Source of the DNA: Rhynchobatus australiae
Taxonomy: Eukaryota
Direction of reading: 5' to 3'
Length of the DNA stretch: 64,000 nucleotides
Assembly: GCA_034780895.1 (NCBI GenBank)
Contig: JAUZTB010000084.1
Location: 9,404,670 to 9,468,669, forward strand
Below, piece by piece: positions 1-54,995 of this stretch (its first letter is position 1; each line of letters opens with the position of its first letter). The position numbers were made by a program, and so were the translations under genes. The notes beneath the pieces are model-generated. The model had not been told where the DNA came from and searched no databases. It was given only the letters and a program-made list of their open reading frames with translations.

Positions 1-6
1 CTGCAG

Positions 7-878
7 TCAATTCTGTCGCGATTGTGATCATGTCCAGAGGAAGATGCGGCCTTTCGAAATGCATCACCGTGTACTTTATAGCCATGACAGTGGCAGATCT
101 AGCGGTGATTGTCACCTACGTGAGTTTGCATCGGATTAACAACGTGTACTTTCCCATGAGTTTCCTTTTCCTCACTCCTGTGTGCTCTCTCAGACATGTC
201 CTGTATATTGTCTCCATTGACTGTTCAGTTTGGTTTACTGTCGTTTTCACATTTGATCGCTTTGTAGTAATTTGTTGTCAGAAACTCAGACGAAAGATCT
301 GCTCCCCGAAAACTGCAGCGTTTGTCATACCAGCTGTGTGTGGGGGGAGCATCTTGAAAAGCTTTCCCGCTTATTTTGGTTACAAACCTGTCTTTGTAAT
401 CGACAATCTCCCGTGGTACTGCATTGGAAAAGCGGAATTTTGGACGTCTCCCTACTGGAAGCTTTACCAACGCACCAGTAACTTTGCAACAAACTTAATA
501 CCAATCCTACTAATCTCGATGTTCAATGCTCTCACGATCAGGTACATTATTGCGGCAAATAGAGTTCGAAGGAGACTTCGATGTAACGGTGGCAATAATA
601 CTGATCAAGAGACGGAGAACCGGAGGAAATCAACTGTTTTGCTGTTCGCTGTATCTGCCATCGTCATCCTGTTGTGGATGTCCAAAGTTGTTCATACATT
701 AAACTAGCAAATGAGAAATTATAATTACACAAACAAGTATTTGAATATTCCCGAGTACATCGCTCAACAAGTCGGATTCATGCTGCAACTCCTCAGTTCC
801 TCCACTAACACGTGTATATATGGACTAACACAGAACAAGTTCAGAGAGGAGCTCAGGAACGGCATAAATTCTTCCTGA
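7..878 (+). pseudogene. GPR139/GPR142-like class A GPCR, exon 2, with premature stop (copy 1; exon 1 outside window)
   Basis: Acceptor ctgcag| at 1-6, then NSVAIVIMSRGRCGLSKCIT...FTFDRFVVIC...ENRRKSTVLLF. TAG at 705-707 aligns to Trp in the paralog (LN*QMRNY vs MNWKIQNY). The frame continues through TM7 (QQVGFMLQLLSSSTNTCIYGLTQNKFREEL) to TGA at 876-878. Confidence 0.85.
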
Positions 879-5216: not shown

Positions 5217-7132
5217 ATGGATTACCCAGCAATTTACTACATAGCGAGCATTTTCTATCCTGTACTTGCAGCGGTTGGGATCCCTGGTACGGTAATGGAA
5301 CTGACTGTTATGTGTGCTCTTTCTTCTTCTTGTTGCACCTGCTTCACTGCAGAATAGACGCCCTGACCCCATCACAGATGCTCCATTGTCTGCTGAGCTT
5401 CTTCAGGTTGTTCAAGTTTAACATGCTGTTTTCAGGATTTGTTCATTTTTTTTTCCATCTGGATCTTTTGTCAATGACATCGATTGAGTTAGCGTTGATA
5501 TTGACATTGTTCTAGCATTTTATCTTCCTTGACTTTACAAAGCATTAGCAATCTCTATTGTTCTCAGTCTGATTCTGCATCAACACAGAAACTTGAAGAT
5601 TTACAACAGAGAAAACCTTTTCCGTCGCCACAGTTTTACCAGCAGTTTCACGGTTTACTTCCGACATGTAGGTCGTTTTGCTTCACCGTGAAACAGCATA
5701 TGAGAACTCCTTTTCCATAAATCTGTTCAAATATCTTTTCAATTACAACAGCAACGCGAAAAATGTGATTTTTCCCCTTTTTGACCTTCTTTCTCCACCT
5801 TTAACTTTAAATCCACGGCTCTTCTCCCCAAATACGTTATGTCTGGAAATAATCTTTCTGACTCCATTTTATGCGCCCATCAATGCTCGTTTCAGCATTC
5901 TCAGACCCCACCAGAGCAAAAACTTCAGGACTGTGTTGATCCGCCGCTCACCGTTAAGTATGTCGTTTGCGTCAGGGTCCCCGCTGTAATCTGCTGGAGA
6001 TTTGCCGTCGCAATTGTGTCCGCGGTTGTACTCCAACTGGAGTACAGCCGCGGAGCCCAGGTGGTCTGAATTTCCTCACTCAGATTCTAAGCCAGCCTCA
6101 ACCTACAGAGAAGCAGATGAATGGGAGCATTTCAGCATGGTGCAGCGCAGCGTTCGGTATGGAATCCAAGTCAAAGTGTCTTGGTCTGGTGCACTTGCAA
6201 CTTATTTTTTTTTCTTTTTCTTCTTCCTTGCAGTTAATTTAGTGGCAATTGTGATCCTGTCTCGGGGAAAGTGCGGACTCTCCAAATGCATCACCCGTTA
6301 CCTCGTGGCCATGGCAACAGCTGATCTACTGAATGTTGTCATTGCTGTTTTATTGGAGCAGGTCAATAATATTTATGTTTATGCCACTGCTTTGCTCATT
6401 ACACCGATTTGCAGCGTGACACTTGTTCTGAGGATCGCAACCATGGATATTTCTGTTTGGCTCACGGTGGCTTTTACATTCGATCGCTGTATTTCAATTT
6501 GCAGTCAAAAGCTGCGGGAACGATATTGCACAGAGAGAATAGCGACTGTGGTGATTGTAGTTGTGGGTGTTGGGTGCTCTGCGAGGTCTGTTCCATATTA
6601 CTTTACAGTGGAGCCTTACATTATCATTGACAACGTGCCCTGGCATTGCATTAGCAACGCTGAATATCTTACTTCACCAGTGTGGAAAGCATACCAGGTG
6701 TTTTGCATTATCGCTCTGCCTTTATTACCAATCGGTGCAATTCTAGTGTTCAATGCTTTAACAGTCAGACATATTATAGCGGCAAATAGAGTCCGACGGG
6801 GACTCCGAAACAGCAGCGAGAATCGGAAAGATCCAGAGGTGGAGAACCGGAGAAAATCCATGATATTATTGTTCGCTCTCTCCGCAAATTTCATATTGTT
6901 GTGGGTACCGATTGTCGTGTTTTATATGAACTGGAAAATTCAAAATTATTTTTACCTCGACAAATATTACAGTACCCCGACATATATCCTGCAACAGTGT
7001 GGGTTCATGCTGCAATGTCTCTGCACCTGCACCAACACGTGCATCTATACACTGTCACAGAGGAAATTCAGAGAGGAGCTGGAGAATGGAGTGAAACGTT
7101 TGGTCACATTAAATGGGTGGCTTTGTAGATAA
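5217..7132 (+). CDS. Intact GPR139/GPR142-like orphan GPCR (copy 2); exons 5217-5286 and 6234-7132; 322 aa
   Basis: Exon 1 reads MDYPAIYYIASIFYPVLAAVGIP with phase-1 donor g|gtacgg. Exon 2 follows a polypyrimidine tract and cag|: VNLVAIVILSRGKCGLSKC...FTFDRC...NTCIYTLSQRKFREEL. The 969 nt are in frame and encode seven hydrophobic segments. AATAAA overlaps the stop. Confidence 0.9.
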
Positions 7133-7796
7133 TAAAACAACTGTAGTAACTTTCGTTGAAAGTTCAAGTAAATGCTCTGAAAGATTCGGAGATTTGGTAA
7201 ATGAACCATTAATCCATACAGCAAAGTGCGTGAACGTCAGTAGCGTATTCGTTCCAGAAGAGGCAGCGGAATTAATTTAGTTAATAGGAGAAACGATTAA
7301 CGAATTAAATGCCAGTATTGTGATTGTTTCATGCTTAGAATTATCTATGAAATCATTGGAATAATGCCAGAATTTGTCCAGCAATTTAGGTGCCGGCGAT
7401 ATGATTGTTTCCTTGGAGATTTACAGTATATTCCAAATCACTCGATAATCCATCCCTGGAACATCAGTGCACATCCTTGGTTGGAACTGGAGACATTTAG
7501 CATAAATAAAACAGTGCAACACTGGTCAGGACATTTGACCCATTTTGGCGCCAATCTTGATGGCAGCTTATACAAAATGCCCTTTTCTTGTGTGTCATCC
7601 ATATCCCACATTCCCTCATAATCATGTCTATATAAACGCCTCCTAAACCATAGTACCATAGAACAATACAGCACAATAAGGCGNNNNNNNNNNNNNNNNN
7701 NNNNNNNNNNNNNNNNNNNNNNNNNNNNNNNNNNNNNNNNNNNNNNNNNNNNNNNNNNNNNNNNNNNNNNNNNNNNNNNNNNNCTCTTCCTTGCAG

Positions 7797-8675
7797 TTAA
7801 TTTCATGGCAATTGTGATCCTGTCTAAGGGAAAGTGCGGACTCTCCAAATGTATTACCCGTTACCTAGTTGGCATGGCAACAGCTGATTTTATGAGTGTT
7901 GTCATTGCTGTTTTATTGGAGCAGGTCAATAATATTTATGTTTATTCTCGTTCTTTGCTCATTACTCCGATTTGCGCCGTGACCCTTGTTCTGAGGATCG
8001 CAACCATGGACACTTCTGTTTGGCTCACGGTGGCTTTTACTTTCGATCGTTGTATTTCAATTTGCTGTCAAAAGCTGCGGGAACGATATTTCAGTGATTG
8101 CAGTGGTGGGTGTTGGGAGCTGTGCGAGGTCTGCTCCATATTACTTTTCAGTGGAGCCTTACATGATCATTGACAACGTGCCCTGGCGCTGTATTAGCAA
8201 CTCTGAATATCTTACTTCGCCAGTGTGGAAAGCATACCAGGTGTTTTACAGTACCACTATGCCTTTATTGCCAATCGGTTTAATTCTATTGTTCAATATT
8301 TTAACTGTCAGACATATTATAGCGGCAAATGCAGTCCGACGGGGACTCCGAAACAGCAGCGAGAATCGGAAAGATCCGGAGGTGGAGAACCGGAGAAAAT
8401 CCATGATATTATTGTTCGCTCTATCCGCAAATTTCATATTGCTGTGGATTCCTATTGTCGTGTTTCATGTGAACTGGAAGGTTCAAAATTATTTTTACCT
8501 CGACAAATATTACAGTACCCCGACATATATCCTGCAACAGTTTGGGTTCATGCTGCAATGTCTCTGCACCTGTACCAACACGTGCATCTACACACTGTCA
8601 CAGAAGAAATTCAGAGAGCAGCTGGAGAATGGAGTGAAACGTTTGGTCACATTAAATGGGCGGCTTTGTAGATAA
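7797..8675 (+). pseudogene. GPR139-like GPCR exon 2 with 20-nt frameshifting deletion (copy 3)
   Basis: Acceptor ttgcag| at 7791-7796. Close homolog of 6234-7132 (879 vs 899 nt). The deletion at ~8091 splits it into ORFs 7805-8173 and 8094-8675. The 3' flank 8676-9190 is homologous to 7133-7650. Confidence 0.85.
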
Positions 8676-30345: not shown

Positions 30346-30840
30346 ACTTCAATTTGGACCAGTCCCTTATTCGTACATTCCGTCAGAACCATACGGCCAA
30401 ACCCCGTGGATCGCCTGGAGGATCCGGTTTAAGGGGGTGGGTATTGTCATGGTTCCTAGTGCTCTCCCTCGATTCAGCCCCATTGATGGTGCCTTGCTGT
30501 GTGGCAAATGGATTCCATATACATGGATCGCATGATGACACACACTTGAGTCCCAGCAGGAGACCAGCATAAGAAACCTGGTTTTACTAGCACTAGCTGC
30601 CAGAGTACCTCTGGGTATCCTTCGTCTCCACGCTGCTTGGAGCTGTCAACTCGAGAGCAGTCCTAGTTTCACTTATCTCCTTGAAAATCCTGTTTACGTT
30701 TCGGGACTCCATCTCAGAGCCCCGAAGAAAGATTCCTTCTCGTCGCAGCGTGCGTTCGGTTCCGTGGAAGCATCCCGACTCCAGTCCCCTGCCGTGGTAC
30801 CGCACTTGGGTACTCCGCGATCTCGTGTGATGCTCTGACA
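30346..30840 (+). mobile_element. 3' end of chromoviral Gypsy: pol tail, PPT and 3' LTR (30445-30840)
   Basis: LDQSLIRTFRQNH..P resembles the post-chromodomain LDPSLIxxFHxxHP motif. Purine tract aagggggtggg lies just before TGTCATGG; the LTR ends TGACA. Confidence 0.75.
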
Positions 30841-31399
30841 GCGCGATTCGAAATCTAATGACAACCACATATAATATGTTGCAATATGTTGAAGCACCCA
30901 AAAGGCGATTTTTCCAGTCCCCTTAACTTTCCGTGTTGGCGTTTCACGATCCCGATACCTTACTGTAATAGCCCAGTCTTCTATTCCTATTGTTCGCTCT
31001 CGCTTCTCCCTCGGTGGAGAGCCGCTGATCTCTGTCAATGCTGAAGTGGGTGGTCTTGCTGAAACTGCGAGAAATGTGTAAAAAGGACGCTTGTTAATAG
31101 AAGAGGAAAATCCTCCTGTGACACAATCGGTCCCCACTGAAATGAAGTTAATTGTGTTCCATAAAATGACACGAGCTTTTTACCCTATATTTGCAAATTG
31201 CTCGATCAACATGAATAGGGATAATGCAAAAGGCTTGGTGTAGGCCGGACTCTACAACGAACGCTCACAGCACTGGAGAGGTCCCTGATGCAAATGACCA
31301 GGTATTTAGACTTGTACTATGGTCTGTGATAAAGGAGAAAGAGAGCACATTGTAGTAACTCTAACAATGTATCACCTGGATGGATTTCGACTGCATGAG

Positions 31400-34000
31400 T
31401 CAAGTTCAGCGTCGGAATCTCACAAACAGCTGTGGAACAAAAAGTCTCAGGCTGAGGTTAGAAACTTAAGGACAGAAGAGGTTGCGAGAGAGAGCGAAGA
31501 AGTGGTAGATGGAATACAGTGATAGGAAGTGTCGAGTTATTCACTTTCGCTGGAAGAATAAAGGTGCATGTCATTTTCTAACTGAGGAGAACATTAAAAT
31601 AATCATAGGTGGAAATGGATCTTGGAGTAGTTGAAGGTTAATTTACAGGTTAAATTGGGTGTAAATACGGCAAATGCAATGTTAGCATTCATTTCGACAG
31701 GACCAGAACATACCAGCAAGGATGTGCTGCTGATGCTTTANNNNNNNNNNNNNNNNNNNNNNNNNNNNNNNNNNNNNNNNNNNNNNNNNNNNNNNNNNNN
31801 NNNNNNNNNNNNNNNNNNNNNNNNNNNNNNNNNNNNNNNNGAGGTTAGAAACTTAAGGACGGAAGAGTTTGCGAGAGAGGGCGAAGAAGTGGTAGATGGA
31901 ATACAGTGATAGGAAGTGTCGGGTCATTCACTGTCGCTGGAAGAATAAAGGTGCATGTTATTTTCTAACTGAGGAGAAAATTAAAATAATCAGAGGTGCA
32001 AATGGATCTTGGAGTAGTTGAAGGTTAATTTACAGGTTAAATTGGTAGTAAATACGGCAAATGCAATGTTAGCATTCATTTCGAGAGGACCAGAACATAA
32101 CAGCAAGGATGTACTGCTGATGCTTTATCAGGCATTAATGAGACTGCATTTGAAATATTGCGAGTAAGTTTGGAAACCGTACCTAAAGAAGGATGTGCTG
32201 GCGCTGGATAGTGTCCAGAGGGGGCTCACGTAAACGATCCCAGGAATGAAAGGCTTAACATCTGTGGGGCGTTTAGACCTCTGTGCCTGTATTCAATGAA
32301 ACTCAGAAGGATGAAGAGATACTTTGAAATCTACCGGATACAGAAAGATCCAAAGAGTGGTCGCAGAAGTATGTTTCCATTAGTAAGAGGGTCTATGATC
32401 TGAGGGCTCAGCCTCAGATTGAAAGGGCGTCCATTTAAAACTGAAAAGAGGAGGAATTTGTTGAGCCAGAGGGTGGTGAATCTGTGGATTTCGTTGCCAG
32501 AAAGGGTGTATTTAAGGAAGAGATTGATAGAGTATTAATTGGTAAGGTGATTAAGGGTTACGGGGAGAAGGCGGGAGAATGGGATAAAAACGAACCATGA
32601 TTGGATGACCGAGAAGACTCGATGAGCCGAATGGCGCAATTCTGATCCTATATCTTACGGTTATGATCCGATACAAATTGCATGGGTATTAGGCAGGAAT
32701 GAGGGAGAGTTAATTGGAGACAGCTGTTCCGGGGCAAGTCCACATCTGATGCGTGGAGGATGTTTAACCACCAACTACATGGAGTACTGGAGAGGTGTTT
32801 TACAGTAAGAAGGAAGGAAAAACAGGACAAGTATGGCAAAGGAAACTGAACTGATGAGAGAGATGGTGAATTTATCAAGAAAAAAAGGAATCATGCGTAA
32901 GTTCTAGGAAGCGAGAATCAAACGAAACGCTGGAGGATTTTCAAGAATGCAGGAAAAAACTCAGTTGGGGAAATAGGAGAGTCAGGTGGGGCCACAGAAG
33001 TCCTTGGCAAGTAGAGTTAAAGAGGATACCAAGGCATTTTACTCATATATCAAGAGCAAAAGGATCGCAATGGAGTGGGCAGAGCCACTCAAGGATGTAC
33101 TTGGGAGGCGAAGGATGTGAGCGAGCTCCTGAATGAGGACATTGTGCGGGTATTTACCAAGGAGAAGAAAGTGGAGAACAGTGAGATCAGTGAGGAGCGT
33201 GCTCATATGCTGGGGCATTTTGAGATGAAGAAAGAGGCAGCGTTGGGTCTCCTTGAGAACTTTAAGTGGGATAAGTTCAGAGGGTGGAAAAAGACCTTTA
33301 CCCGGATGCTGCCTGGATGATAGAACATGGACAACTTGTGTTGTTTTCTCTGGAGCGCTGGAGATTCAGGGGAGACCTGACAGAAGTTTATAATTTTTTA
33401 AAGCCCCAGATAGAGCAGGCAGCCAGTAACTTTTTCTCAGAGCCGAAATGTCTAATACAAGAGGGCTTGCATTCAATGTGAGGAGGAGTTAGTTCAAAGG
33501 AGATGTAGGGGTCCGGTTATTCACGCAAAGAGTGGGAGGTGACTGGAATGCTCTGCCAGGGGGTTGGTGGCAGCAAATACGATAGAGACGTTTGATAAGC
33601 TCTTATAGAGACACATGAATGAGACGAAAATGGAGGGATATGTGCCATGTGTAGGCACAACTGTGAGATATAATCCGTGCTCACAATCACCATGCCAGAG
33701 ACAAAGTCTTGGAAACAAGAAAACCATTTATTTACGANNNNNNNNNNNNNNNNNNNNNNNNNNNNNNNNNNNNNNNNNNNNNNNNNNNNNNNNNNNNNNN
33801 NNNNNNNNNNNNNNNNNNNNNNNNNNNNNNNNNNNNNGACGTTTGATAAGCTCTTATAGAGACACATGAATGAGACGAAAATGGAGGGATATATGCCATG
33901 TGTCGGCACAACTGATCAGTTTTGTTTGGTGTTCAATTGCTAGTTCAGTACAACATCGTGGACTGAAGGACCCGTTCCTCTGCTGTGTTGTACTCTGTTA
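31400..34000 (+). mobile_element. CR1 LINE fragments (at least two 3' ends)
   Basis: ANAMLAFIS, KDVLLML and FSLERWRFRGDLTEVY motifs, with 3' tails near 32650 and 33990. Confidence 0.8.
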
Positions 34001-36099
34001 CATAATCAAAGTTTTATTTGTAAGAAGTGATACATTTTATGAGGGGTAATAACGGTAACGCAAACGCAAGAGTGGGACAGCCTCAGGAAATATTGAGAAC
34101 AGATGTATATTTGTGTAAGGAGCCCCCTTAAGATAAAAACGTTGACATAGTCATTCTGGTTGCATGTATTCGTAAGCCTTAAATGAAATTGAACAGGCTG
34201 TAGGTCATTTAAAGGCATTTTGTTGGCAATAGCTGGGATGATGGGTGCTGTTTGGATAGCACACTCTCGTAAGACCGTGATTCTCTGGAGGGTTGCACAA
34301 ACGATTCAGCTGGACTTTGCATGGGGTGAAACCTTTTAGTTATGAGGAGGGACTGCATAGTCTGGGTTTGTTTTCCTTGTGGCGGACAAGGCTGCAGGGG
34401 TAGCCGAGGAACATAATGTTATGAAGGGCTCGCATAAGGAAGGTAGTCGCACTCTTTTCCTGATAAAAGACCAGAGCGCACATCTGCATGGAAGTAGGAG
34501 GGTTTTAGGGGATCTCACTGTGTGTAATTCACCCGGTGAATATTTACAATCTGGAATACATCACTTGAGAAGGCAATGCAGGGAACGTACACTCTCAACA
34601 CCAGATGTATGTCGACTAACACTTGAATCGGCAAGGCACAGAAGGCTATGGAGAAAGTGCTGCGGAATGGGAGAGCTTCAGATTGGTGATGGATAGTCGG
34701 CGTTGGTATGTAGGCTGAAGGGCCTCTTTCTGTGACGCATGATCATTTGATTCAATGATAACATCAAGGGCAGTCTCCGACACACGTGGGCTGTGTGCCA
34801 TACACGATGGACTACCTGTTCTTAAAGTGGTATGTAATACAGACATGGTGGGCGTTCTGCTTCAACTTTGATCTATGACACAGATACGCCGGTCCCTAAT
34901 GTACACTTCGTGTGCCAGGTTTGCTTTACCTCTGGTTACTAATATAAATGTGGTAAGGCAGTTCGTTCTTCTCCGGCGCCTGTAAATCAGACAAACTGAA
35001 GACATTCGGCTTTCCTTGATGATCTGATGGTGTCCAGCTGACAGTTAACGAGTTCTCCCTTACATGAAAATACTCGGAGATACAGGACTCTTATTTGAAA
35101 CGAAGAGGGCGCGGTTGATATTAACAGGATCTCAGAACATTCGGTAAGGACTGTGGAACACGTTCTGCTTTGCAAATCGCCGATGCATTCAAAATAAACG
35201 TTACCTATATTCAGATACATTTACACATGGTGAATTACCCTTGCGTTCCGTACACTTCACAATAACAACGGCCACTTGGCAACCAAGTACATGAATAAGA
35301 ATAATATCTTGTTCCGAGAAAGAAATGTTCAAGGACTGATCTCAATATCGACGGAGTAAAGGAAGAACATAACAATTAAATACATTGTATATTTGTATCG
35401 TCACCATCGGAATTGTCAATGAAGTCACTATTGGTGTTGCTCTGAAGCTGCGAAATGCTTTGGTGAGCCCACATTTGCAACAGTATAACCGCAGTTTAGC
35501 CACTTGTAGAATATATTGCGAAATTCCGGTGGGCTCACTACAGGACGGAAGTGGAGGCTTTGGAAAGACTGCAGATAGGTTTCACCAGGAGAAAGTCATA
35601 TAATTGAATAGCATGGAATCAGAAATCAGAACCAACTCATCCATGCCAATCAAAATATCGTCCAAGCAAATGTCGTCCAAGCAAATGTCTGCTTGTATTT
35701 GGCCCATAACCCTCCAAACCTTTCCTGTCGACGTACCTGTCCAAGTGTATTTTAAATATTGAAAATTTGCAAGACTTTATAGCATCCTCCGTTGGTTCCA
35801 TGGACCAACCCCCGTTAGTGTGAATAAACGTTAGGCCCTCTCGTTTTAAATTCCTCTGCACTGAGAATAAAGACTTTGAACATACAACTTGTCCAACACT
35901 TCATGATTTAATAAATCAACACTCAGCCTTCTGCGCTCCACAAGAAAACGCCGTAATTTATCGAGTATCTCCTGATAGCTCAAACTGCGCACGATGCTCC
36001 ATGTGTGGTTTCACTAACGACTTGCACATTTGTAAATTGATCTCACAACTACTGCAATCGACGCCCTTACGAATGATGTCAAGCACATCAGGGAAATAT

Positions 36100-36523
36100 C
36101 AGGGTGGCTTGCAAAAGTTTGTACACCCCTGTTCAAAATTTATGTTACTGTGAATATTTAAGTGAATAGAAAATGTACTGATCTGCAAATGTCAAAAAAC
36201 TTAAAGATGGAACATTCTTTTCAATATTTTAAGCAATATTTAGTTTACTATTTTCTCTTTTGTACAATTCTAGAGGGAAGAAAAGGGAAGGAGCGTCATG
36301 TAAAAGTTTGGGCACCCCAAGAGGTGTGAGCTCTCAGATAACTTTTACCAAGGTTTGAGACCTTCATTAGTTTGTTTGGGCTATGTCTTGTTCACAGTAA
36401 TCGTTAGGAAAGGCCAGGTAATGTAAAATTCCAAGCGTTATAAATAGCCTTACTCCTCAAACCTTGTCCCAACAATAAGCAGCCATGGGCTCCTCTAAGC
36501 AGCTGCCCAGCAGTCTGAAAATT
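36100..36523 (+). mobile_element. Tc1-like DNA transposon left end (IR/DR) and transposase start
   Basis: Direct repeats aaaagtttg(ta/gg)cacccc at 36113 and 36302, tataaa, then ATG at 36485 (MGSSKQLPSSLKI); truncated after that. Confidence 0.75.
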
Positions 36524-36689
36524 CACTCGAAGTCACTCCCAAAATAACAAAGAGCTGTTGTTACTGTAAAATCGTCCTCTATTCTTTTGAAGAGAGTGAT
36601 TCTTATCAGGAATTCATTGCGCTGCAGGTACCCGGGTCGCCAGTGCCTCCCTCCTTGGTCTCAGCTGGGAGCTCCGTTGCTGGCTATTA

Positions 36690-37210
36690 AATAAAACATT
36701 GAACAATACAGTACAGAAACAGGCCATTCGGACCACCACGTCTGTGCCGAGCATGATGGTATTTTAAACATCGCCTCTACCTGCACATGATAAATATCCT
36801 CCCATTCCACGCATATTCATATGCCTATCTAAACTCCCCTTGAACGTCATTATCATATCTGCTTCACCACTGTCCCTGCCATCCCAATCTGGGAGCCCAC
36901 CACTCTCTGTGTAAGAAGCTTGACCGTGCATCATCTTTAAACTTCCCCTTTTCTTTTATTAACTGAATGCTCTCTGGTATTTGATATTTCTACCTAGGGA
37001 AAAAAGATTTTGTATGTCTACCTATGTGCGGTTCGCAGAATTTAATAAACTTAAATCTGGTCTCTACTCAGCCTCCGATGCTCCGGCGTAAACAACTCAG
37101 GATGTCCAAACTCTCAGAAGATCTCATTCCCTCTATCCCAGGCAACATCCTGGCAAACGTCTCTTGCGAACTTCCCAGGCATCTAGATCCTTCCTGGAAT
37201 GTGGCAATCA
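36690..37210 (-). mobile_element. CR1 3' fragment
   Basis: Reverse-complement CR1 tail and RT end. Confidence 0.7.
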
Positions 37211-38439
37211 GATTCTTATTATTTTCAGTCTTGCTCCCAGTAATTCTTCACTGCCTCTGTCGTCCTTTATCTCTCTTAATCAATTCAGATGCATGTACTC
37301 AAAAATCGTCTGTTTGTTTTCCTATTCGACTGTTTATCGCATGGATGTCCTATGTTTGGCATTGTTCCGCTTTTATTCTGAATTCTTCGGATTCATCTCT
37401 TCCCTTTACTTCCTATTTGTTTGTGTAACACTACAATCCCTGTTCGTACTTTATATTTGTGAAATTAGTACATGCCTCTGCATTAAAAACAATCACATGT
37501 CACGAGATATAACAGTCTAGGTGAGTGACAAAGCAAAGTTGTTTGATGGCGTATCACTGAGACGTTCTCCCCCCATTATATCTCTCACTCGGTTATTGTG
37601 TTATTGTAATTTTTGTGTTTCTTCTTGCACAACTGCAGATTTCACTAAATTCTTTGCACCATTCCGCTAATTTTTGCTCTCGTAGTTGTATTTATTGTTG
37701 TGTTTATTATTACGATATATGCTGTTTAATCTGCGAGTTTAATACGGATAAGGCCATTTCGTATACAGTTGTGTATGTGACAAAAACCTGATGTGATCCA
37801 ATCTTGTCTAATTCTATCCAATCTCTTCTCATTTTATCAAAAATGTCACAGTTCCGACATGAAGCCAGCTGTTTACAGACGGACCGCATGCTTGTCTTGC
37901 TACATCACTTCAATGGGAGGAATGTGAAACTGCGGGCGCTCTGAGATGGCGCTTTCATCCAAGCTTCCTCTGGTAGTGCTTTCAGCAATTGCGGGACAAT
38001 CGCTGTCATGATGAAAATGAAATCAGAAGATGCTAGAAACTTCAACAGGAGATGGTAAGAAAATGGAGTTAAGGTTTCAGGAAAAAGACACTTTGTCAAA
38101 TGTTACTGACATGATAAGTATTTCCAGCATTTTCTGTTTTCATTCCGGATTTCCGCCGTGTATTTCTTGACTTTCACACCAGACTTGACCATCATTCTTC
38201 ATATTCTGAGAGTCCCATTGCGTCTCCAATGCTCAGTTCTAAACTTAACAACTTTGTTGAGTTGAACGGACTCACCCCCCATTCCCCTCAAAAAGAAAGG
38301 AACAAGAGAAGAAGGAAACGGATCATTCAACCATTTATATTTATTGGTACGGCCGTTAAAAGAGGTCTCCCCCTCCACCCCGAGAGTGAATCGACAGTGT
38401 ACCAAAAATAAATGTAAATTGATTCCCGTAGCGAAGGCG

Positions 38440-38552
38440 TCATTGCGTGGTGAGCGGTCTGCAACATACGAGCCCGTGAGAGCAGCTTCCAAACTGGTAC
38501 TCTTTGTTGATGCAGTACTGAGCACAACATGCACCTATAGAGCGGTAATTAA
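38440..38552 (-). CDS. Beta-defensin-like mature-peptide exon (terminal, phase 1)
   Basis: Acceptor tttatgatttacag|. Translation xNYRSIGACCAQYCINKEYQFGSCSHGLVCCRPLTTQ*. Spacing [Y]-x6-C-x3-C-x9-C-x5-CC with GxC. AATAAA on minus at 38340-38345. Confidence 0.75.
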
Positions 38553-41334
38553 CTGTAAATCATAAATAAAAACAGTTTTACGAATAAGTAGTTGAATCAT
38601 TTTATCCACAGTTGCAGAATGAAGAACTGTTCTCAATTTCTTTGTTTTGGAGGTCCACAGCCATCCTGGGGTTCGAAGGTCTCATCCTCCTCTTTCTTGT
38701 GATTAAATGACTCGATGATGATTAAAGAGGGAAGTGGATAGAGGAATGCCAGTAGTTATGCACAGTTTTAAAGTCACAAAGGTGAGAGTGACTGGGCTGT
38801 TGCATTAAATAAAATCGGTGCAACATTTAACATGCAGTCATAAACAGATGATTAGCCAATCAAAGGAGATGAGGATGAGCGACAAGCGTGTCAGTTTAGT
38901 TTCGAAAAGTGCAATCAGAGATATGGCACAGGGATAAGCGCTGGGCCCCCAATCAATTTACAATGTATGCTCATGAGCGAGCATGCAAGACTCGTGCGAT
39001 CTCTTTAGCTCACGGTGTAAATATAGGTATGGAAAAAGTGGGAAACACGTTGGAAGCAGTTCAGGGAGGGTTGAATTCCTCAAAATCTGCAGAAGGACTG
39101 TGGTTCAGATAAGCCGGTACTGCACAGATCAACTATTTGTAAGTTTATCTCCCCCAATAGGACTGAGATCGCTTCCAAATGAAAATTGCCTGATTCATTT
39201 CCGCTTTGTAAATAGTTCTGATTTTGACCTCTGCCCTTCACGATCCTGGCACTTTATTGCTGTAAGAAGGGCCTCCTTGGACTTTTCCTGCTCCCCCACA
39301 TCACTGAAGTCCTCTTCCCCTTTAGGGCTGCAGTGAAACGTTCCTAAATGGTGGGCATCCTCCTCAAGTGTGATGTGAAAAAAGGACACACTTCATTCAA
39401 TACCCTGCTGTTGATATGTATAAATCATGCCTCATAAGCTTTTCTGTTCGTTCTCACATGTAGCTTTGAGATTAAGCGGGAACAAACAACACAATCTTTC
39501 AGCATGTGAGGGAAATATATGTTCAGATGGCATTTTTCACCTCATATCTCCGCCTGTTCTGACACCCGCATCTTTACGAACTCTTCGGTAACATCTGAAT
39601 TCATCAAATTATCACTCTGGAATCCATTTGCCCAAGTTGAGGAGCAAACTTCCCACAATCACTTGTGGCTGTAGATAGTTACTGTCGGTAAACGGTTCTA
39701 CAGGAAGTCCATTACCCTGACTCATACATCACACCATGGGAAACAGTGTGGTTTTGGAACATGACTTGAATATTTGCTCCATTTTATTCTCCNNNNNNNN
39801 NNNNNNNNNNNNNNNNNNNNNNNNNNNNNNNNNNNNNNNNNNNNNNNNNNNNNNNNNNNNNNNNNNNNNNNNNNNNNNNNNNNNNNNNNNNNAGTGAGCC
39901 TGTGTGACTTTCAAGTGCTGTGTTTGAGATTGAGTGCCGAGGCTTTGGTTTGTGAGACTTCGGCGACGAGGTAGAGCAGTGGCAGAGGTAAAAACAGGAA
40001 AACTTATTTTATCCTGATTACGTTGACTAAGTGAAGGCGGGATGTCAGTGTTGACTTTGGTAGTCTCCTGCTGCAGTATGTGGGAGATCATGGAAACTTC
40101 AAGTTCCACGCTAATTACATCTGTGAGAAGTGCGTCCGGCTGCTACTTCTTGTTGATCGAGTCAACGAACTGGAGATGAAGCTGCACGCAGTCAGGATTA
40201 CACAGCTTGCTTAGAGCATTAAGGAAAGGAGTTCTCGAAGTGGACACACCTACGCTGCAAGTTGTAGGTTGTTGTGAGACCACCAAGAAAGGTAAACTGA
40301 GCAGGCAGTCTATGCAGTGTTCCCTTCCGGCCATCTCCCTCAGTCACAAGTATCTCTCTTTGGATACTGTTGGGGGAATGACTTTCAGAGTGAAGAGGCA
40401 GCAGCCACTTTTGCGGCACCGTCACCGGCTCTGAGGCTCAGAATGGAAGGGTGAAGTTTCAGAGAGCGATAGTGATAGTACACTCCATTGTTATGGAATT
40501 AGACAGCGGATTTTGTGGTCAAAAACAAGAACGCCAGAGCGGTATGTGGCACCCAAGGTGCCAAAGTCAAATATGTCTCCCAGCGGTTGCAGAATATTTT
40601 CAATGGGGAAGGTTAGCAGTCAGATCTCGTTGAGTACATTGATATCATGTGATGAGGTCCTGCTGAGTGAGTATCGGGAAGAGGTTGAAAAGCAGAATCC
40701 CAAGGGTAGTGATCTCTGGATTATTCCCAGTGTCACGTGCTAACGAGAGGAGAAATAGAAGTATATACCAGATAAAGGGTTGATCCAGGTTGGTGCCGGG
40801 TACAGAGCTTCAGCTTCTTGGACCGGAAGCATTTCTTCTGGGTCAGAGATGACTTGGACAAGAGGGACGGATTACACCTGAAATGGAGGGGCACCAACGT
40901 CAGGGAAGAAAGATTTGTTCATGTTACTCGCGAGAGTTGAAACATTGTGTGGGTGGTCCCTCCGTAGATATGTGACGATTGAGAAGTTGCGGCAAACACT
41001 GAAGACAATGAGAACAAATTAAGTAGAGAGTTCAGCCAGTAGCACTGGGAGAGAGGAAAGACCAAGAGTTTAAACTAGACTTGTTTCAAATGCAAACTGT
41101 GTAAAGTAAGGCAGATGGACTCAGGACGTGGAGTGGCTCAGAGGATGGGACATGACAGCCATAACAGAGACATGGATGAGAGAAGAGCCAGTCAGTGTCC
41201 AAGATGCAGATGCTGCCTGCCTGGTAGTGGCACAGGTAAGAGAAGGGAGAGTGACTTTCTGATGAGGCAGGCCATAAGAACAATGCTGAGTGAATTTTCT
41301 TAGAGGTCCAGTGAGGTGATATGAGTAGATCAAA

Positions 41335-42384: not shown

Positions 42385-43560
42385 AGAATAAGAATCTGAA
42401 TTAGGTTTTATACCACTGACATCTGTCGTGAATACTGTTTTGCGGCAGCAGTACGAGATATTAAGTCATCAAATTTACACTAAGTTATGGAAGTAAATAT
42501 ATAGTACAGAAGAGAAGATACAAGGTGTTCATGGGTTCATTCAGTGTTCAGAAATCGAATGAAGGAGTGGAAGAAATTGTTTCTCAAACGTTTAGTGTAG
42601 AACCTCTTACAAGGAGTACCTTGTGTTAGGGTTAGGGTTAGGGTTAGGGTTAAGTCTCATCAAGGAGTACCTTCTCCTTGATGGTAGGAACGTGAAGGGG
42701 GCATGTTCATGGTGGTGAGCGTCCTTAATATTGGATCCTGCCATCTGGAGGCACTGCCTCTTGAAGCGGAGTGTTGGGCCCGTGATGGAGCTGGCTGAGT
42801 CTACAACCCCCTGCATCCTCTTTTAATCCTGCATTTAGCTGCTTCCGTACTCGGCGGAAATTCAAACAGTCAGAATGTTCTTCATTGTACATCTCAAAAT
42901 ATTGCAAGAGTATTTAGTGATGTACCAAATCTCCCGAAATTCCAAAGAAGTAAATCCTCTCGCGTGCCTTCTTCGTGATTGCATCAATGTGCTGGTCTCA
43001 GAATAGATCCTCTGATATGTTGACGCGAAGGCACTTGAAGCTGCTCACCTTTTCCGCCGCTGACTTCTTAATGTGGACAGGTGAGTTTTTTCCGACTTCC
43101 CCTTCCTGAAGTCCACAATGAATTCCTTGGTCTATCTGACGTTGTGTGGGAGGTTGTTGTGGTTGCACCACTCAATCAGATAACCCATCTCACTTATGTA
43201 GGCCTAACCATTGCCGTTTGAGGTTCTGCCAACAACAGTGGTGTTATCGGTAAATTTATAGATGACAGTTAAGCTGTATCTAGCCACACAGTTATGAGTG
43301 TAGTGTAAGTTGAGCACTGGACTAAGCACGCATTCTTGATGCGCGCCTCTGTTGATAGTGAGCGAGAAGGATATATTACTACCGTTCGGCCCTGATTGTG
43401 CTCTCCCGATAAGGAAGTCGGGGAAGCCTTTGCATAGGGAGACATGGGCATAGGTTTGAAACTTGCTGGTTAGTGATGAGGGCATGACGCTGTTAAACGC
43501 TGAGTTGTAATCGATAACCAGATTGATATATGTTTCGCTGTTGTCGATGTCTAAATCTAG
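42385..43560 (-). mobile_element. Rex1/Babar LINE RT and 3' part nested in CR1
   Basis: IDYNSAFNSV..GAHQECVLSPVL..YTHNC..KFTDNTTVVG. Confidence 0.8.
42626..42652 (+). repeat. Interstitial telomeric repeat (TTAGGG)4
   Basis: Four perfect units plus TTA. Confidence 0.9.
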
Positions 43561-46500
43561 GTATAGAGGACCCAAGCAGAGAAAGTGCAACACTAGACAT
43601 TCATTTTGGGAATGAGTCAGGCCAAGAGACTGTCAGTAAGTGAGCAATTTACGACCAGAAGGCCATTAGTTTTGAAACACTGATGGAAAAAGACAGGGCT
43701 CATCCACAATCAGGTGTTTAATAGGCCCAGGTTTAATTTTGGTTGCATTTGGCGGGAACTTGCAGAAGTCGATTGGGTGAGACTGTTTGTAGGTAAAGGG
43801 ACTTCTGGAAAATGAAAGGCTTTTAAGAGTGAGATATCTGGAGGGAAGGGCAGCATGTTTCTGTTGGGGTGAAGGGAAAGGCTTCAGGTTCAGAAAAAGA
43901 AATTGGTTGACGAGAGATATTCGGGCTCTGGTCAGGAAAAGAAATTAGATCGACATTATATTTACATATTTTAAATCAAATTACTTGTCGAGTACAAGGA
44001 GTAGGAGCACACGAGGAAAATCAGGAGGGCAAAAGGAGGAACTGAAAAGGATGTGCCAGCCAAGGTCACCGAAATTCCCAAGATATTATNNNNNNNNNNN
44101 NNNNNNNNNNNNNNNNNNNNNNNNNNNNNNNNNNNNNNNNNNNNNNNNNNNNNNNNNNNNNNNNNNNNNNNNNNNNNNNNNNNNNNNNNNNNNNNNNNNN
44201 NNNNNNNNNNNNNNNNNNNNNNNNNNNNNNNNNNNNNNNNNNNNNNNNNNNNNNNNNNNNNNNNNNNNNNNNNNNNNNNNNNNNNNNNNNNNNNNNNNNN
44301 NNNNNNNNNNNNNNNNNNNNNNNNNNNNNNNNNNNNNNNNNNNNNNNNNNNNNNNNNNNNNNNNNNNNNNNNNNNNNNNNNNNNNNNNNNNNNNNNNNNN
44401 NNNNNNNNNNNNNNNNNNNNNNNNNNNNNNNNNNNNNNNNNNNNNNNNNNNNNNNNNNNNNNNNNNNNNNNNNNNNNNNNNNNNNNNNNNNNNNNNNNNN
44501 NNNNNNNNNNNNNNNNNNNNNNNNNNNNNNNNNNNNNNNNNNNNNNNNNNNNNNNNNNNNNNNNNNNNNNNNNNNNNNNNNNNNNNNNNNNNNNNNNNNN
44601 NNNNNNNNNNNNNNNNNNNNNNNNNNNNNNNNNNNNNNNNNNNNNNNNNNNNNNNNNNNNNNNNNNNNNNNNNNNNNNNNNNNNNNNNNNNNNNNNNNNN
44701 NNNNNNNNNNNNNNNNNNNNNNNNNNNNNNNNNNNNNNNNNNNNNNNNNNNNNNNNNNNNNNNNNNNNNNNNNNNNNNNNNNNNNNNNNNNNNNNNNNNN
44801 NNNNNNNNNNNNNNNNNNNNNNNNNNNNNNNNNNNNNNNNNNNNNNNNNNNNNNNNNNNNNNNNNNNNNNNNNNNNNNNNNNNNNNNNNNNNNNNNNNNN
44901 NNNNNNNNNNNNNNNNNNNNNNNNNNNNNNNNNNNNNNNNNNNNNNNNNNNNNNNNNNNNNNNNNNNNNNNNNNNNNNNNNNNNNNNNNNNNNNNNNNNN
45001 NNNNNNNNNNNNNNNNNNNNNNNNNNNNNNNNNNAATGGAAAAAAGACAGGGTTCGTCCACAATCAGGTGTTTAATAGGCCCAGGTTTAATTTTGGATGC
45101 ATTTGGCGGGAACTTGCAGAAGTCAATTGGGTGAGACTGTTTGTAGGTAAAGGGACGTCTGGAAAGTGAAAGGCTTTTAAAAGTGAGATATCTGGAGGGA
45201 AGGGCAGCATGTTTCTGTTGGGGTGAAGGGAAAGGCTTCAAGTTCAGAAAAAGAACTTGGTTGACGAGAGATATTCAGGCTCTGGTCAGGAAAAGAAATT
45301 AGATCGATATTATATTTACATATTCTGAATTACTTGTCGAGTACAAGGAATAGGAGCACACAAGGAAAATCAGGAGGGCAAAAGGAGGAAATGAAAAGGA
45401 TCTTCCAGCCAAGGTCACCGAAATTCCCAAGATATTATGCAGATATATTGAGGGTTATGGAGTTGGCAGGGAGAAATTAAGTCTTCTTAAGGACCGGCAT
45501 GGCTGTCAATTCATGGAACCACAAGAGGTGGGTAAGATTTTTAATGAATAATTCTCATCAGATTTTACTGCAGAAATCATGGAAACTATGGGATTGACTC
45601 CAAATTAGCAGTGATATCTTGGGCCATGTCCGAATTACAGAAGACGCGGTTTTGGCAGTCTTAAACCACATTAATGTGGATAAATCTCCAGGGATGACCA
45701 CTGCATCCTCGGATCTTGTGGAAAGCTGGGGAAGAAATTATGGAGGCCCTTGCAGAGATAATTACATCATTTTTAGCCACAGCTGCAGTCCTGAAAGATT
45801 TGAGGATGGCTAATGGTGTACTGTTATTTAAGAAGGGTAACAAAGATAAGCAAAGAAACTGCAGGCCGTTAACAATGACATTAGTGGTGTTAAGTTACTA
45901 GAGGAGATTCTGAAGGTCAGGTTCTACCAGGATGTGCAGGGAGAAGAACTGATTAGGGACAGTCAGCATGGCTCTGTATCTTGGCAATCGTATCCTAAAA
46001 ACCTGTTAGAACTTTTGAAGTGGATTGTTGAGAGCATTGCTGAGGATATTGTTTGCATGGACTTTAGCATGTCTGGAAAGTCAGATCTCGGAGGAGTTGG
46101 CCAGTTGGATTCATTATTGACTCGATGGCAGGAAGTACAGTGCGATGGTGGAAGATTGTTTTTCAGACTGCAGGTCTGTTACTCGTGGCGTGCCTCACGG
46201 TTCAGTGCTGGGACCACTGTTGCTTGTCATTGAAATAAACGATTTCGACGAGAATGTACAAGGAATGATCAGTAAGTTTTCCGATGATATTGAAAATGGG
46301 TAATATCATAGACAATGCAGAATATCGTAAAAATTAAACGTGGATCTTGAACAGCTTGGTAAGTGGGACAAGTAATGCAACCGGCTCATTCCAGATGAGA
46401 GGGAAGTGTTGTATTTTGGTAAATCAAAATAGGAAAGAAATCTCGGACTGACCTTCCTGGGGAGGTGTTGTAAAACACAGGGATCTTGGAGTGCAAGTAA

Positions 46501-46847
46501 ATATTTCCCTGAAACTGTCATCACAAGCAGACAAGGTTGTGAAGGCGGCGTTTGGCACACTGGCTTTTTATCATTCAGGGCATTGAGTTGAAGAGCTGGG
46601 ATGTTATGTTGCAGTTGTACAAAACGTTGGCGAGTCCGCACCTGGAGTATCGTGTGCAGTTTTTTCGGGCTGATTTGCTGGAACTGGACAGCCTAAGTTA
46701 TAAGAGACGTAGGGCAGGCTCAGCCTTTATTCCATGGAGTGTAGGAGACTGACTGCATTCCTTATGGAGGTGTATAAAATCATCATCAGGGACATAGATG
46801 GGGTGGATAAACATAGGCTGTTTCCCAGGGAAAGAGAATCAAACATT

Positions 46848-47127
46848 AGAATAGATAAGATATCCTTAATAGTTACATGCATATCAAACACACATAGTGA
46901 AATGCATCTTTGTGTTGAGTGTTCTGAGAGCAGCCCGCAAGTGTCGCCATGCTTCTAGCGCCAAATAACACGCCCACAACTTCCTAACATGTCTTAGGAA
47001 CGTGGGAGGAAACCCACGCAGACACGGCATGAACGTACAAACTCCTTACAAATAGCCACCGGAACTGAACCCGTGTTGCTATCACTGTAATAGCGTTACA
47101 CTAACCGCTACACTGCCGTGCCTGCCC
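46848..47127 (-). mobile_element. tRNA-derived SINE nested in CR1
   Basis: Minus strand ggcacggcagtgtagcggttag (A-box-like) and ggttcagttcc (B-box-like). Confidence 0.8.
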
Positions 47128-53170: not shown

Positions 53171-54995
53171 ATTTGTATGATTGTTGAGAGTTTTCCAGCG
53201 ATAAGCGCTGCAGGTGATAATTTACAGTCTGATTATGGCAAGTAAATAAACTCCGTTGAACCGTTATACAGCACAATACAGAATCCTCAGTGGGAGCGAG
53301 AGAAGGAGCTGAAGAGGTGGAAACGAATGGGCATCAGGAACACACGGCGTATGCGTGGGTCACAATGGAAGTACTGCGACGTTGAAGTCAAGATGAATGA
53401 AATCCGCAGGATGTTCAACCGGGACAGGTTGAGAGATGAACGCCAGGGAATGCAGGGAGAGGATGGCAGCAGGGAGCACTAGCAAAGCACAGAGGAATCT
53501 TACAGCAACTTACCAGTGTGGAAAGGTGAACTATAACAACACGGGTTCCCAATGGGGCAGACTGTGTCCACGGTGCTTCGGGGATGTAGGAGAAGGAGTC
53601 CGGCGAGTTGTGGTGGGGCCAGAAATTACACACTTCCTCTTAGCGTTGAGTGCATTTTACAATTTTGAGGGGTGATTACCCACTTTCTTCAGCTGCTCCA
53701 TGAACGTCTCACTCACGGCCTTAAGAGCGGTGTTGATGCAACACATTCTCACAGAATGTAGTGGACGCACAAACACGTAGAAGTGCAAATGCAGCCGGCT
53801 CCACACAGAATACACCGTAAACTATACCTCCCAACAGGAGGAAATAGATAGCGATAACCAACAGTAAAATGAGGGAATTCTTGCGGCTCTCCATTTCCGG
53901 GTCTCTGGGAAACTCCCCACTGCTGGGAACCCGGATACTCCTGTGAGCTCTACTCACCACTAAAACATATCGGCTGGTCAAGACATTGAACAGAAGAATG
54001 AGGACAAATGGGACCACGTGTGAGGAGATGATAAAGGAGCTCGATTGCCGACTAGACAGATAAAGACAAAAGCAATGAATTCGTGGACGGCAAAACGAAT
54101 TTGTATTAAACTTGGAATAATTTTCTGGCGACTAAAATACCATAAAATATTCTTTAAGCTGCTCAGCACAGTCACTGTCCCCAGAACCACAGCCGCCGTT
54201 CTCACGATGCAATATTTAGTTTTCTGCTTCTGGCAAGAAATGGCCACAAATGGATCAAAAGTGAAAGTGACGGTGAACCAGACTGAACTGTCGGTGGTTG
54301 CATGAAGCAGCACGGCGTGGAAATTCTACACGGTGATAGACCAGAGAAAACGGATAAGTCCCTCTTAAACTATCGGGATCTGCCTCAATATCAGGTCCAG
54401 GATAACGTCCAGTATATCCGCCGCTGCCATGGCAGCGATTGATTGATTGAACGAACTCAAAATATAGCAAAAGTCATAGATTCTCTGGAATTTTGCAAAT
54501 AGGGAATTTTAGGACTGCAGACTGTCGTTGAGAGATAATAAATACGGCGGAAAGCTGTACCTGCAGCATTTCAATGAACGTGTGCACACAGCGAGGATTA
54601 GACGGTTCATGCGCAAACATTTGAAGATGACAAATAGGTCCACAAAGAAATTAACCAAAATCCCGTGATGTTGCGATAGGTTAGAGGACACAAACCAGCA
54701 AGTCTTCATAAACTGATAGATATTACACTCGTTTCCAAGCAACTGTAATATTTCGTCCAATTCTGAATGGCTCGCCGGAAAGGAATGAAAGACTCGGAGC
54801 GACCACGAGCGGATTTACTGCAGTGGACCTAATGATAGGAATACTGAGATCGAATAAAGGCGCTCAGTTTTATTTCTTAAGTGATCTAGAAATAAAATGA
54901 TGCAGAGAGTGTAAATAACGTGAGTTAGTCTCCGTGGATGAAGGCTATGAACTCAGATACAAACTTAAACTGAAACAAGAAGGTATGAGACTCAC

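What the first reader, a model, noticed from the sequence alone, without database searches (positions are those of the whole stretch)
38340..38570. Hidden beta-defensin-like exon with a shifted first cysteine
Seen: a 113-nt minus-strand exon with a good acceptor, stop and polyA signal encodes NYRSIGACCAQYCINKEYQFGSCSHGLVCCRPLTTQ. It is too short for the ORF track. Known: beta-defensins follow C-x6-C-x3/4-C-x9-C-x5/6-CC with GxC, after a phase-1 intron. Seen: the Cys1 position is Tyr (TAC, one change from TGC) and an extra Cys sits next to Cys2, so six Cys are kept. Inference: either a rewired-disulfide defensin variant or a decaying copy. Cartilaginous-fish defensins are poorly catalogued.
Basis: partly seen in the sequence, partly recalled or inferred. 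Interest (0 to 1): 0.8.

Follow-up and report, generated by a model that had tools for sequence, protein, structure and literature searches.

The report
Beta-defensin duplicate missing its first cysteine
This is the last exon of a duplicated beta-defensin gene in a cartilaginous fish that lacks the usual first cysteine and has an extra one beside the second; it is likely a decaying copy rather than a newly wired peptide, but its first exon is not assembled and expression is untested.

Summary
The exon is real (38552-38440, minus strand) and passes Pfam's beta-defensin cut-off. The genome holds two close paralogs. One is canonical: six cysteines, an intact signal-peptide exon and a phase-1 intron. 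The other is a 96%-identical sister that shares the Tyr but is dead, with a stop at the extra-Cys codon, two more cysteines lost and a broken exon 1. A copy in another organism has Tyr without the extra Cys, so Cys1 was likely lost first and the extra Cys (Arg CGT to TGT) came later. The window's own promoter and exon 1 are expected in a 100-N gap that spans about 3.4 kb in the sister. Purifying selection is not shown (0 changes against 1.3 expected, P 0.28), and no RNA run was listed. Best reading (0.58): a decaying duplicate in a birth-and-death cluster. Rivals: an expressed Defr1-like peptide with free thiols (0.27), or a rewired three-disulfide monomer (0.12). Mouse Defr1 already has Tyr at Cys1 with the same spacing. 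The by-product, an unannotated beta-defensin cluster in a ray-like genome, is worth more than this copy.

The parts
38440..38552 (-). Exon 2 coding part: 2 nt completing a phase-1 codon, 36 codons, TGA stop; pattern Y-x5-C-C-x3-C-x9-C-x5-CC
   Evidence: PF00711 22.3 bits against cut-off 21
38545..38547 (-). TAC (Tyr) at the Cys1 position; TGC in the canonical paralog, TAC in the sister
   Evidence: T at 38546 also in X2 and X3 contigs
38527..38529 (-). Extra Cys (TGT) directly before Cys2; CGT (Arg) in the canonical paralog, TGA in the sister
   Evidence: G at 38529 in both X3 contigs
38461..38526 (-). Canonical Cys2 (38526), Cys3 (38514), G-x-Cys4 (38484) and Cys5-Cys6 (38466, 38463), all intact
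38553..38572 (-). Splice acceptor: T-rich tract ending in CAG; same position in both paralogs
   Evidence: splicing itself untested
38340..38345 (-). AATAAA, candidate polyadenylation signal about 95 nt after the stop; also present in the canonical paralog
38553..39792 (-). Assembled part of intron 1; homologous to the canonical paralog's 1569-nt intron right up to the gap
39793..39892 (.). 100-N assembly gap; expected place of the rest of intron 1, exon 1 and the promoter (about 3.4 kb in the sister copy)
   Evidence: content inferred, not seen
39893..40270 (.). Upstream flank, 95% identical to sister contig C1546, which runs on 3113 nt to the promoter

Best explanation
The exon is the peptide-coding exon of a duplicated beta-defensin gene that has Tyr in place of Cys1 and an extra Cys beside Cys2, and it is likely a decaying duplicate in which the two changes arose separately and were likely not selected as a pair. 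Shown: three copies of this exon in the genome (canonical, window, dead sister), a shared Tyr in window and sister, and a Tyr-plus-Arg copy in another organism. Inferred order: (1) duplication from a canonical gene; (2) Cys1 to Tyr, which would leave Cys5 unpaired, together with a Leu-to-Arg change in the signal-peptide core; (3) Arg CGT to Cys TGT; (4) a second duplication giving the window copy and the sister, which then broke. If the window copy is still transcribed, it would most likely give little or no properly folded secreted peptide.
For: The sister (95.6% over 1017 nt) shares the Tyr and has TGA at the extra-Cys codon, Cys4 to Phe and Cys6 to Tyr; its exon 1 has a stop and a 1-nt deletion. 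In X3 the depth-10.4 contig keeps T at 38546 but has G at 38529, that is Tyr with Arg. An X3 exon 1 of similar depth (11.9) lacks 12 nt in the signal-peptide core and shares the Leu-to-Arg change with the sister. Exon divergence from the canonical copy equals the flank rate: 16 of 113 against 133 of 880; pN 0.129, pS 0.174. Neutral simulation gives a new Cys in 23-43% of runs with 6-15 substitutions, and the dead sister gained another Cys by the same Arg-to-Cys route. The region is full of duplicated and broken genes: 73 GPCR tblastn segments in 684 kb and a further five-Cys defensin-like exon.
Against: The window exon has no stop or frameshift, and its acceptor and AATAAA are intact. All 5 exon differences from the sister are on the sister's side; the window has 0 of its own against 1.28 expected (P 0.28; about 0.14 by hand if the intron block is pooled). 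Losing exactly one Cys, gaining exactly one and staying open happened in only 7-9% of neutral runs. One dead twin after a duplication is expected even if the other twin works. The X3 deletion keeps the frame, and the X3 exon 1 and exon 2 contigs are matched by depth and shared letters, not physically linked. Defr1 shows that Tyr at Cys1 can be functional (PMC2883079, passages). Fast change in mature defensins is also compatible with positive selection (established knowledge). The model still looks like a defensin.
Confidence: 0.58

Rival explanations
1. An expressed, Defr1-like variant. The peptide would be secreted with the native Cys2-Cys4 and Cys3-Cys6 bonds, while the orphaned Cys5 and the new Cys stay free or form bonds between chains, giving covalent dimers or oligomers with antimicrobial or chemotactic activity.
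For: Mouse Defr1 has Tyr at Cys1 in the same Y-x6-C-x3-C-x9-C-x5-CC spacing; its activity depends on a covalent dimer and is higher than that of the six-Cys form (PMC2883079, passages). The window exon is open and unchanged since the split from its sister. The model keeps three strands and resembles HBD4 (probability 1.00, rmsd 0.9 over 27 columns, E 0.088).
Against: No expression data. Both closest relatives seen are damaged. The lineage's exon 1 carries Arg in the hydrophobic core in both copies seen. The peptide is only weakly cationic, 3 K+R against 1 D+E, whereas Defr1 is +6.
Confidence: 0.27
2. A rewired monomer. The new Cys was selected because it restores an even cysteine count and lets three bonds form inside one chain, either by replacing Cys1 or by a register shift, loosely like the step from beta- to alpha-defensin wiring.
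For: Six cysteines are kept. The gain follows the loss, as compensation would. No own changes since the sister split (not significant). Near-adjacent first cysteines occur in a Komodo dragon beta-defensin (VkBD20, spacing 1-3-9-7; PMC6716921, passages). Alpha-defensins appear among the weak fold matches.
Against: The new Cys and Cys2 are neighbours inside one predicted strand (residues 7-10), so they would point to opposite faces. From recalled HBD-2 geometry (no call checked it), the residue before Cys2 lies beside Cys6, on the face opposite Cys5, so it could not simply replace Cys1. The sister destroyed this very codon. The pattern was not seen complete in any other organism: X3 lacks the Cys, and in X2 the third base was not shown.
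Confidence: 0.12
3. The Tyr or the extra Cys is a sequencing or assembly error, or window and sister are two haplotypes of one locus.
For: The assembly is fragmented: 21 gaps in the window. None of the X1 contigs shown covers the window's own version of 38514-38780.
Against: T at 38546 and A at 38529 are shared with a separate contig and with the X2 contig; the third base of the Cys codon equals the canonical paralog's. Window and sister differ by 4.2%. In X1, window-type, sister-like and canonical-type contigs have similar depths of about 9, 9 and 9-12 (depth is a weak measure).
Confidence: 0.03

Closest known systems
Vertebrate beta-defensins (Pfam PF00711; HBD3 1kj6, HBD4 5ki9, crocodile CpoBD13 7t9q)
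   Same: Two-exon plan with a signal-peptide exon and phase-1 intron (seen in the paralog); Cys2-x3-Cys3-x9-Cys4-x5-CC spacing and G-x-C; Pfam cut-off passed; profile match to a human beta-defensin entry at E 3e-7; predicted three-strand fold.
   Different: Cys1 is Tyr, so the Cys1-Cys5 bond cannot form; an extra Cys precedes Cys2; exon 1 and expression of this copy are not seen.
Mouse Defr1 (five-cysteine allele of Defb8; PMC2883079, passages read)
   Same: Tyr at the Cys1 position with identical spacing, Y-x6-C-x3-C-x9-C-x5-CC.
   Different: Defr1 has no extra Cys, is +6 and is a shown active covalent dimer. The window peptide has six Cys, is about +2 and is untested. The two Tyr changes are presumably independent (inference).
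Komodo dragon beta-defensins with atypical spacing, e.g. VkBD20 (1-3-9-7; PMC6716921, passages read)
   Same: The first cysteine lies close to the second within a beta-defensin cluster.
   Different: One residue separates them there, none here; those too are genome predictions.
Mammalian alpha-defensins
   Same: First two cysteines close together; the same three-strand fold; weak fold matches.
   Different: Recalled, not from a call: alpha-defensins have C-x-C, a longer Cys4-Cys5 loop, Cys1-Cys6 wiring and a long acidic propiece. Here the spacing is CC and x5, the paralog's exon 1 has only 28 codons, and the direct paralog is a canonical beta-defensin.

Membership tests
Canonical beta-defensin | Six-cysteine motif C-x6-C-x3/5-C-x8/10-C-x5/6-CC | tested here: not met
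   Cys1 is Tyr; the other five are in register and a sixth sits beside Cys2. Met by the paralog on C55315. Motif as in PMC6716921 and PMC4571063 (passages).
Canonical beta-defensin | Homology by profile (PF00711 above the curated cut-off) | tested here: met
   22.3 bits against 21. The canonical paralog scores 19.3, below the cut-off, so the score is marginal for this lineage.
Canonical beta-defensin | G-x-C before Cys4 and terminal CC | tested here: met
Canonical beta-defensin | Signal-peptide exon joined by a phase-1 intron | tested here: inconclusive
   The acceptor phase fits. Exon 1 is intact in the canonical paralog, broken in the sister and not assembled for this copy.
Canonical beta-defensin | Three-stranded defensin fold | tested here: inconclusive
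Model pLDDT 72, one of five models above 70; best match HBD4, probability 1.00 but E 0.088, 0 of 73 matches at E <= 0.001. The alignment held canonical paralogs.
Canonical beta-defensin | Disulfides Cys1-Cys5, Cys2-Cys4, Cys3-Cys6 | not testable with these tools
   Cys1-Cys5 is impossible from the sequence; the tools return no sulfur distances.
Canonical beta-defensin | Expressed, secreted and active | not testable with these tools
   No RNA holder was listed; this is no evidence either way.
Defr1-type five-cysteine defensin | Tyr at Cys1 with the other five cysteines kept | tested here: met
   the window peptide has one further Cys
Defr1-type five-cysteine defensin | Covalent dimer needed for activity | not testable with these tools
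   needs synthesis and mass spectrometry
Alpha-defensin | C-x-C start and long Cys4-Cys5 loop (recalled motif) | tested here: not met
   Spacing is CC and x5; the direct paralog is beta-type.

The most novel reading that the evidence does not exclude
A living beta-defensin caught rewiring its disulfides: after losing Cys1, the lineage gained a cysteine next to Cys2 and now folds with a new three-bond pattern, a natural parallel to the origin of alpha-defensin wiring, in a vertebrate group whose defensin genes I found no paper on.
Probability: 0.12. Interest if true: 0.65.

Novelty: new variant of a known kind. Interest (0 to 1): 0.3.

Why it matters
If the copy is decaying, it is an ordinary step in defensin birth and death, with a traceable order of mutations. 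If it is expressed, it would be a natural test of how a defensin tolerates loss of the Cys1-Cys5 bond, with the canonical paralog as a built-in control. The wider gain is the cluster. This genome has at least two intact-looking two-exon beta-defensin genes (C55315; C84:9364934-9361290). The protein collections returned no match for two alignments built on the window and C55315 exons, and I found no paper on cartilaginous-fish beta-defensins (searches; most subscription journals are not covered). Earlier AI notes report such families in two shark genomes (unchecked), so the family looks widespread and unannotated rather than special to this locus.

Tried and rejected
Protein homologs: 0 hits at E <= 0.001 among 1.84 billion representatives. 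1 candidate, none at E <= 10, for the three-copy alignment. 8 candidates, none at E <= 10, for three exon-1 frames. Short queries make these weak searches, and only near lengths were searched. RNA: no RNA holder listed. Window-type exon 1 was not among the 2 X1 contigs laid on exon 1 and X2 gave 0; uninformative, because no X1 contig shown carries the window-type 38514-38780 either, and X1 may be this DNA's source, so it is not independent. Exon 1 elsewhere in the window: no credible blastn or tblastn hit. CpG hot spot as the cause of the extra Cys: weak, since CpG transitions were 12 of 86 against 49 of 504 at other C/G. PF00711 genome search: 25 matches at E <= 10; of the 20 loci fetched only the window's own exon fitted my motif filter. 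PF13841 search: 12 matches, one clear defensin exon. ESM Atlas: the three rows shown are beta-defensin clusters at 0.75-0.83, leads only. First structure model unusable. The wide structural search could not be run because the machine was busy. A venom role was considered because the genome looks ray-like; nothing here supports it. Papers with nothing relevant in the passages searched: PMC7203481, PMC3161384, PMC10707392, PMC13337447. Two papers were not held. No supplements were read; they could list shark or ray defensins. Earlier findings for this genome and for this sequence: none.

Full report
Observation. A minus-strand exon of 113 nt (38552-38440) follows a T-rich acceptor, opens with two bases that complete a phase-1 codon, encodes 36 residues and stops at TGA; AATAAA lies at 38345-38340. 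The Cys1 position is TAC and an extra TGT precedes Cys2. It is the only match to the defensin core pattern in the window, and 3 of 100 shuffles gave any match. It scores 22.3 bits on PF00711 against a cut-off of 21. A profile of four exons from this genome matches a human beta-defensin entry at E 3e-7 and HBD4 at 7e-5. The best structure model has three strands, pLDDT 72, and its top Foldseek match is HBD4 (probability 1.00, rmsd 0.9, E 0.088; 0 of 73 matches reach E 0.001). That model was built on an alignment holding canonical paralogs, and an earlier two-sequence model was unusable. The neighbouring receptor gene's best relatives are GPR139-like proteins of rays at 69-75% identity, so a cartilaginous fish is supported.

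Three copies. Protein and DNA searches of the own genome give three real copies of this exon (3 of 4 matches, the fourth being a simple repeat; 3 of 3). The copy on C55315 is about 81% identical and canonical: C-x6-C-x3-C-x9-C-x5-CC, with TGC where the window has TAC and CGT (Arg) where the window has the extra TGT. It has a TATA box, an 85-nt exon 1 encoding a signal-peptide-like stretch, a phase-1 GT donor and a 1569-nt intron. The sister on C37422 is 95.6% identical to the window and shares the Tyr, but has TGA at the extra-Cys codon, Phe for Cys4, Tyr for Cys6 and a new Cys at the residue after the Tyr. Two more small contigs, C58380 and C1546, are 95-96% identical to the window where they overlap it and carry the 3' part of exon 1 and the promoter. 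I assign them to the sister by that identity; they are not joined in the assembly. That exon 1 has a stop, a 1-nt deletion and Arg for Leu in the hydrophobic core.

The missing exon 1. The window's intron matches the canonical one right up to the 100-N gap at 39793-39892. On the far side, 39893-40270 matches the end of C1546, which runs on 3113 nt to the promoter. By the sister's layout the gap stands for about 3.4 kb, including promoter and exon 1. Neither was found in the window or as a third copy in the assembly. Whether this copy has a working exon 1 is unknown, and it is the main open point.

Order of events. Three public runs hold related DNA, all as contigs, none on record as RNA. In X3, a 1259-nt contig (depth 10.4, 49 differences) covers the exon. 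At 38546 the other letter has depth 71.4 of 81.8, so this contig keeps the Tyr codon; at 38529 the other letter has 81.8 of 81.8, so it has the Arg-type base. A Tyr copy without the extra Cys therefore exists, and parsimony puts the loss of Cys1 first. Two other sites (37941, 38567) place this contig outside window plus sister, and one (38169) disagrees. The single X2 contig (depth 3) keeps both window letters, but its third codon base was among the 460 rows not shown. On exon 1, X3 has a canonical-type contig (depth 88, 5 differences, no gap) and one of depth 11.9 that lacks 12 nt in the signal-peptide core and shares the Leu-to-Arg change and seven other letters with the sister. Pairing that exon 1 with the Tyr exon 2 is an inference. 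If it holds, the Arg in the core is old in the Tyr lineage and the window's exon 1 probably has it too. X1 is identical to the canonical exon 1 and may be this DNA's source, so I do not count it as independent.

Selection. Between window and canonical copy the exon differs at the flank rate (16 of 113 against 133 of 880), with pN 0.129 and pS 0.174. Since the split from the sister the window exon has 0 changes of its own against 1.28 expected (P 0.28), while the sister has 5. That is the one hint of constraint, and it is not significant; pooling the intron block (12 of 395) gives about 0.14 by hand. In neutral simulations from the canonical exon, 6-15 substitutions create a new Cys in 23-43% of runs, and give exactly one loss, one gain and an open frame in 7-9%. 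So the extra Cys needs no selection, though the window's tidy state is not the commonest neutral outcome. CpG decay is only slightly raised here (12 of 86 against 49 of 504), so I do not lean on it.

Mechanism if expressed. By analogy with the canonical paralog the product would be a precursor of about 65 residues, secreted and trimmed to a weakly cationic peptide (3 K+R, 1 D+E). Cys1-Cys5 cannot form. The new Cys and Cys2 are neighbours in one predicted strand and would face opposite sides. From recalled HBD-2 geometry, which no call checked, the new Cys would lie beside Cys6 and away from Cys5. The likeliest fold keeps Cys2-Cys4 and Cys3-Cys6 and leaves two thiols free, leading either to retention and degradation or to covalent dimers. 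A clean three-bond monomer would need a register shift.

Known cases. Mouse Defr1 has Tyr at Cys1 in the same spacing, and is an active covalent dimer and chemoattractant (PMC2883079, passages). The Komodo dragon cluster includes atypical spacings such as 1-3-9-7 and extra cysteines (PMC6716921, passages). Avian consensus spacing and pseudogenes are in PMC4571063 (passages); birth-and-death evolution of the family is stated in PMC4255768 (listing and start of abstract only). A 2019 review names only transferrin, squalamine and kenojeinin I as antimicrobial molecules of cartilaginous fishes (PMC6795676, section 14 read). My searches found no paper describing their beta-defensin genes (listings only unless named), in a library that lacks most subscription journals; no supplements were read. 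Two earlier AI notes report dozens to about a hundred such genes in shark genomes; I did not check them.

Context. In 684 kb of scaffold C84 around the window (176 kb of it N), a motif scan gave 11 hits, of which I judge 3 to be defensin exons: this one, a six-Cys exon at 9361402 with its own exon 1 at 9364934, and a five-Cys exon at 9475969 (Pfam scores 20.2 and 10.3 bits, both under cut-off). Related promoter and exon-1 sequences lie at C84:9677.9 kb and on five small contigs. They are interleaved with 73 GPR139-like tblastn segments, many of them fragments, and the defensin-plus-receptor block is itself duplicated.

Verdict. A real beta-defensin-derived exon and a new cysteine variant of a known kind. 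It fails the canonical six-Cys test, so I file it as a derived paralog, not a canonical member. Decaying duplicate 0.58, expressed Defr1-like variant 0.27, rewired monomer 0.12, artefact 0.03. Interest 0.3.

Noticed in passing
G000:C55315, L006:1764-1680 (exon 1) and L003:1610-1498 (exon 2), minus strand: Intact-looking canonical two-exon beta-defensin gene; the protein collections searched returned no match for its exon 2.
   Followed up: yes
G000:C84:9364934 (exon 1, in L087) and L069:1592-1477 (exon 2), minus strand: A second, divergent six-cysteine beta-defensin gene about 82 kb from the finding, with a signal-peptide-like exon 1.
   Followed up: partly
L039:7286-7404 (G000:C84 about 9475955), plus strand: Defensin-like exon with five cysteines (the terminal CC has only one), acceptor and AATAAA present, 7.3 kb beyond the window's end; exon 1 not found.
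   Followed up: partly
L032:1756, L031:1045, L058:1010; weaker or broken on L041, L056, L057: Further copies of the same promoter and signal-peptide exon whose second exons were not found, so the family is larger than the five peptide exons seen.
   Followed up: partly
Run X3 contigs on L006:1660-1790 and window 38118-38572: Canonical-type contigs have depth 71-88 against 10-12 for the Tyr type, which may mean the canonical gene is amplified several-fold in that organism; depth is no copy number.
   Followed up: no
window 3-869, 6215-7132, 7787-8675 (plus) and 53832-54469 (minus): Four GPR139-like receptor copies: one open, one with a stop, one frameshifted, one with stops and in pieces; part of a large array interleaved with the defensin genes.
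   Followed up: partly
window 30347-39792 and 45328-46954 against G000:C55315: Blocks of 73-86% identity show a segmental duplication over at least 16 kb; receptor-like sequence also lies on C55315.
   Followed up: partly
window 42626-42649: Four telomere-type hexamer repeats inside what looks like a retroelement fragment.
   Followed up: no
window 38106-38206: Very high-copy short repeat about 230 nt downstream of the stop codon, depth above 36,000 in two runs.
   Followed up: no
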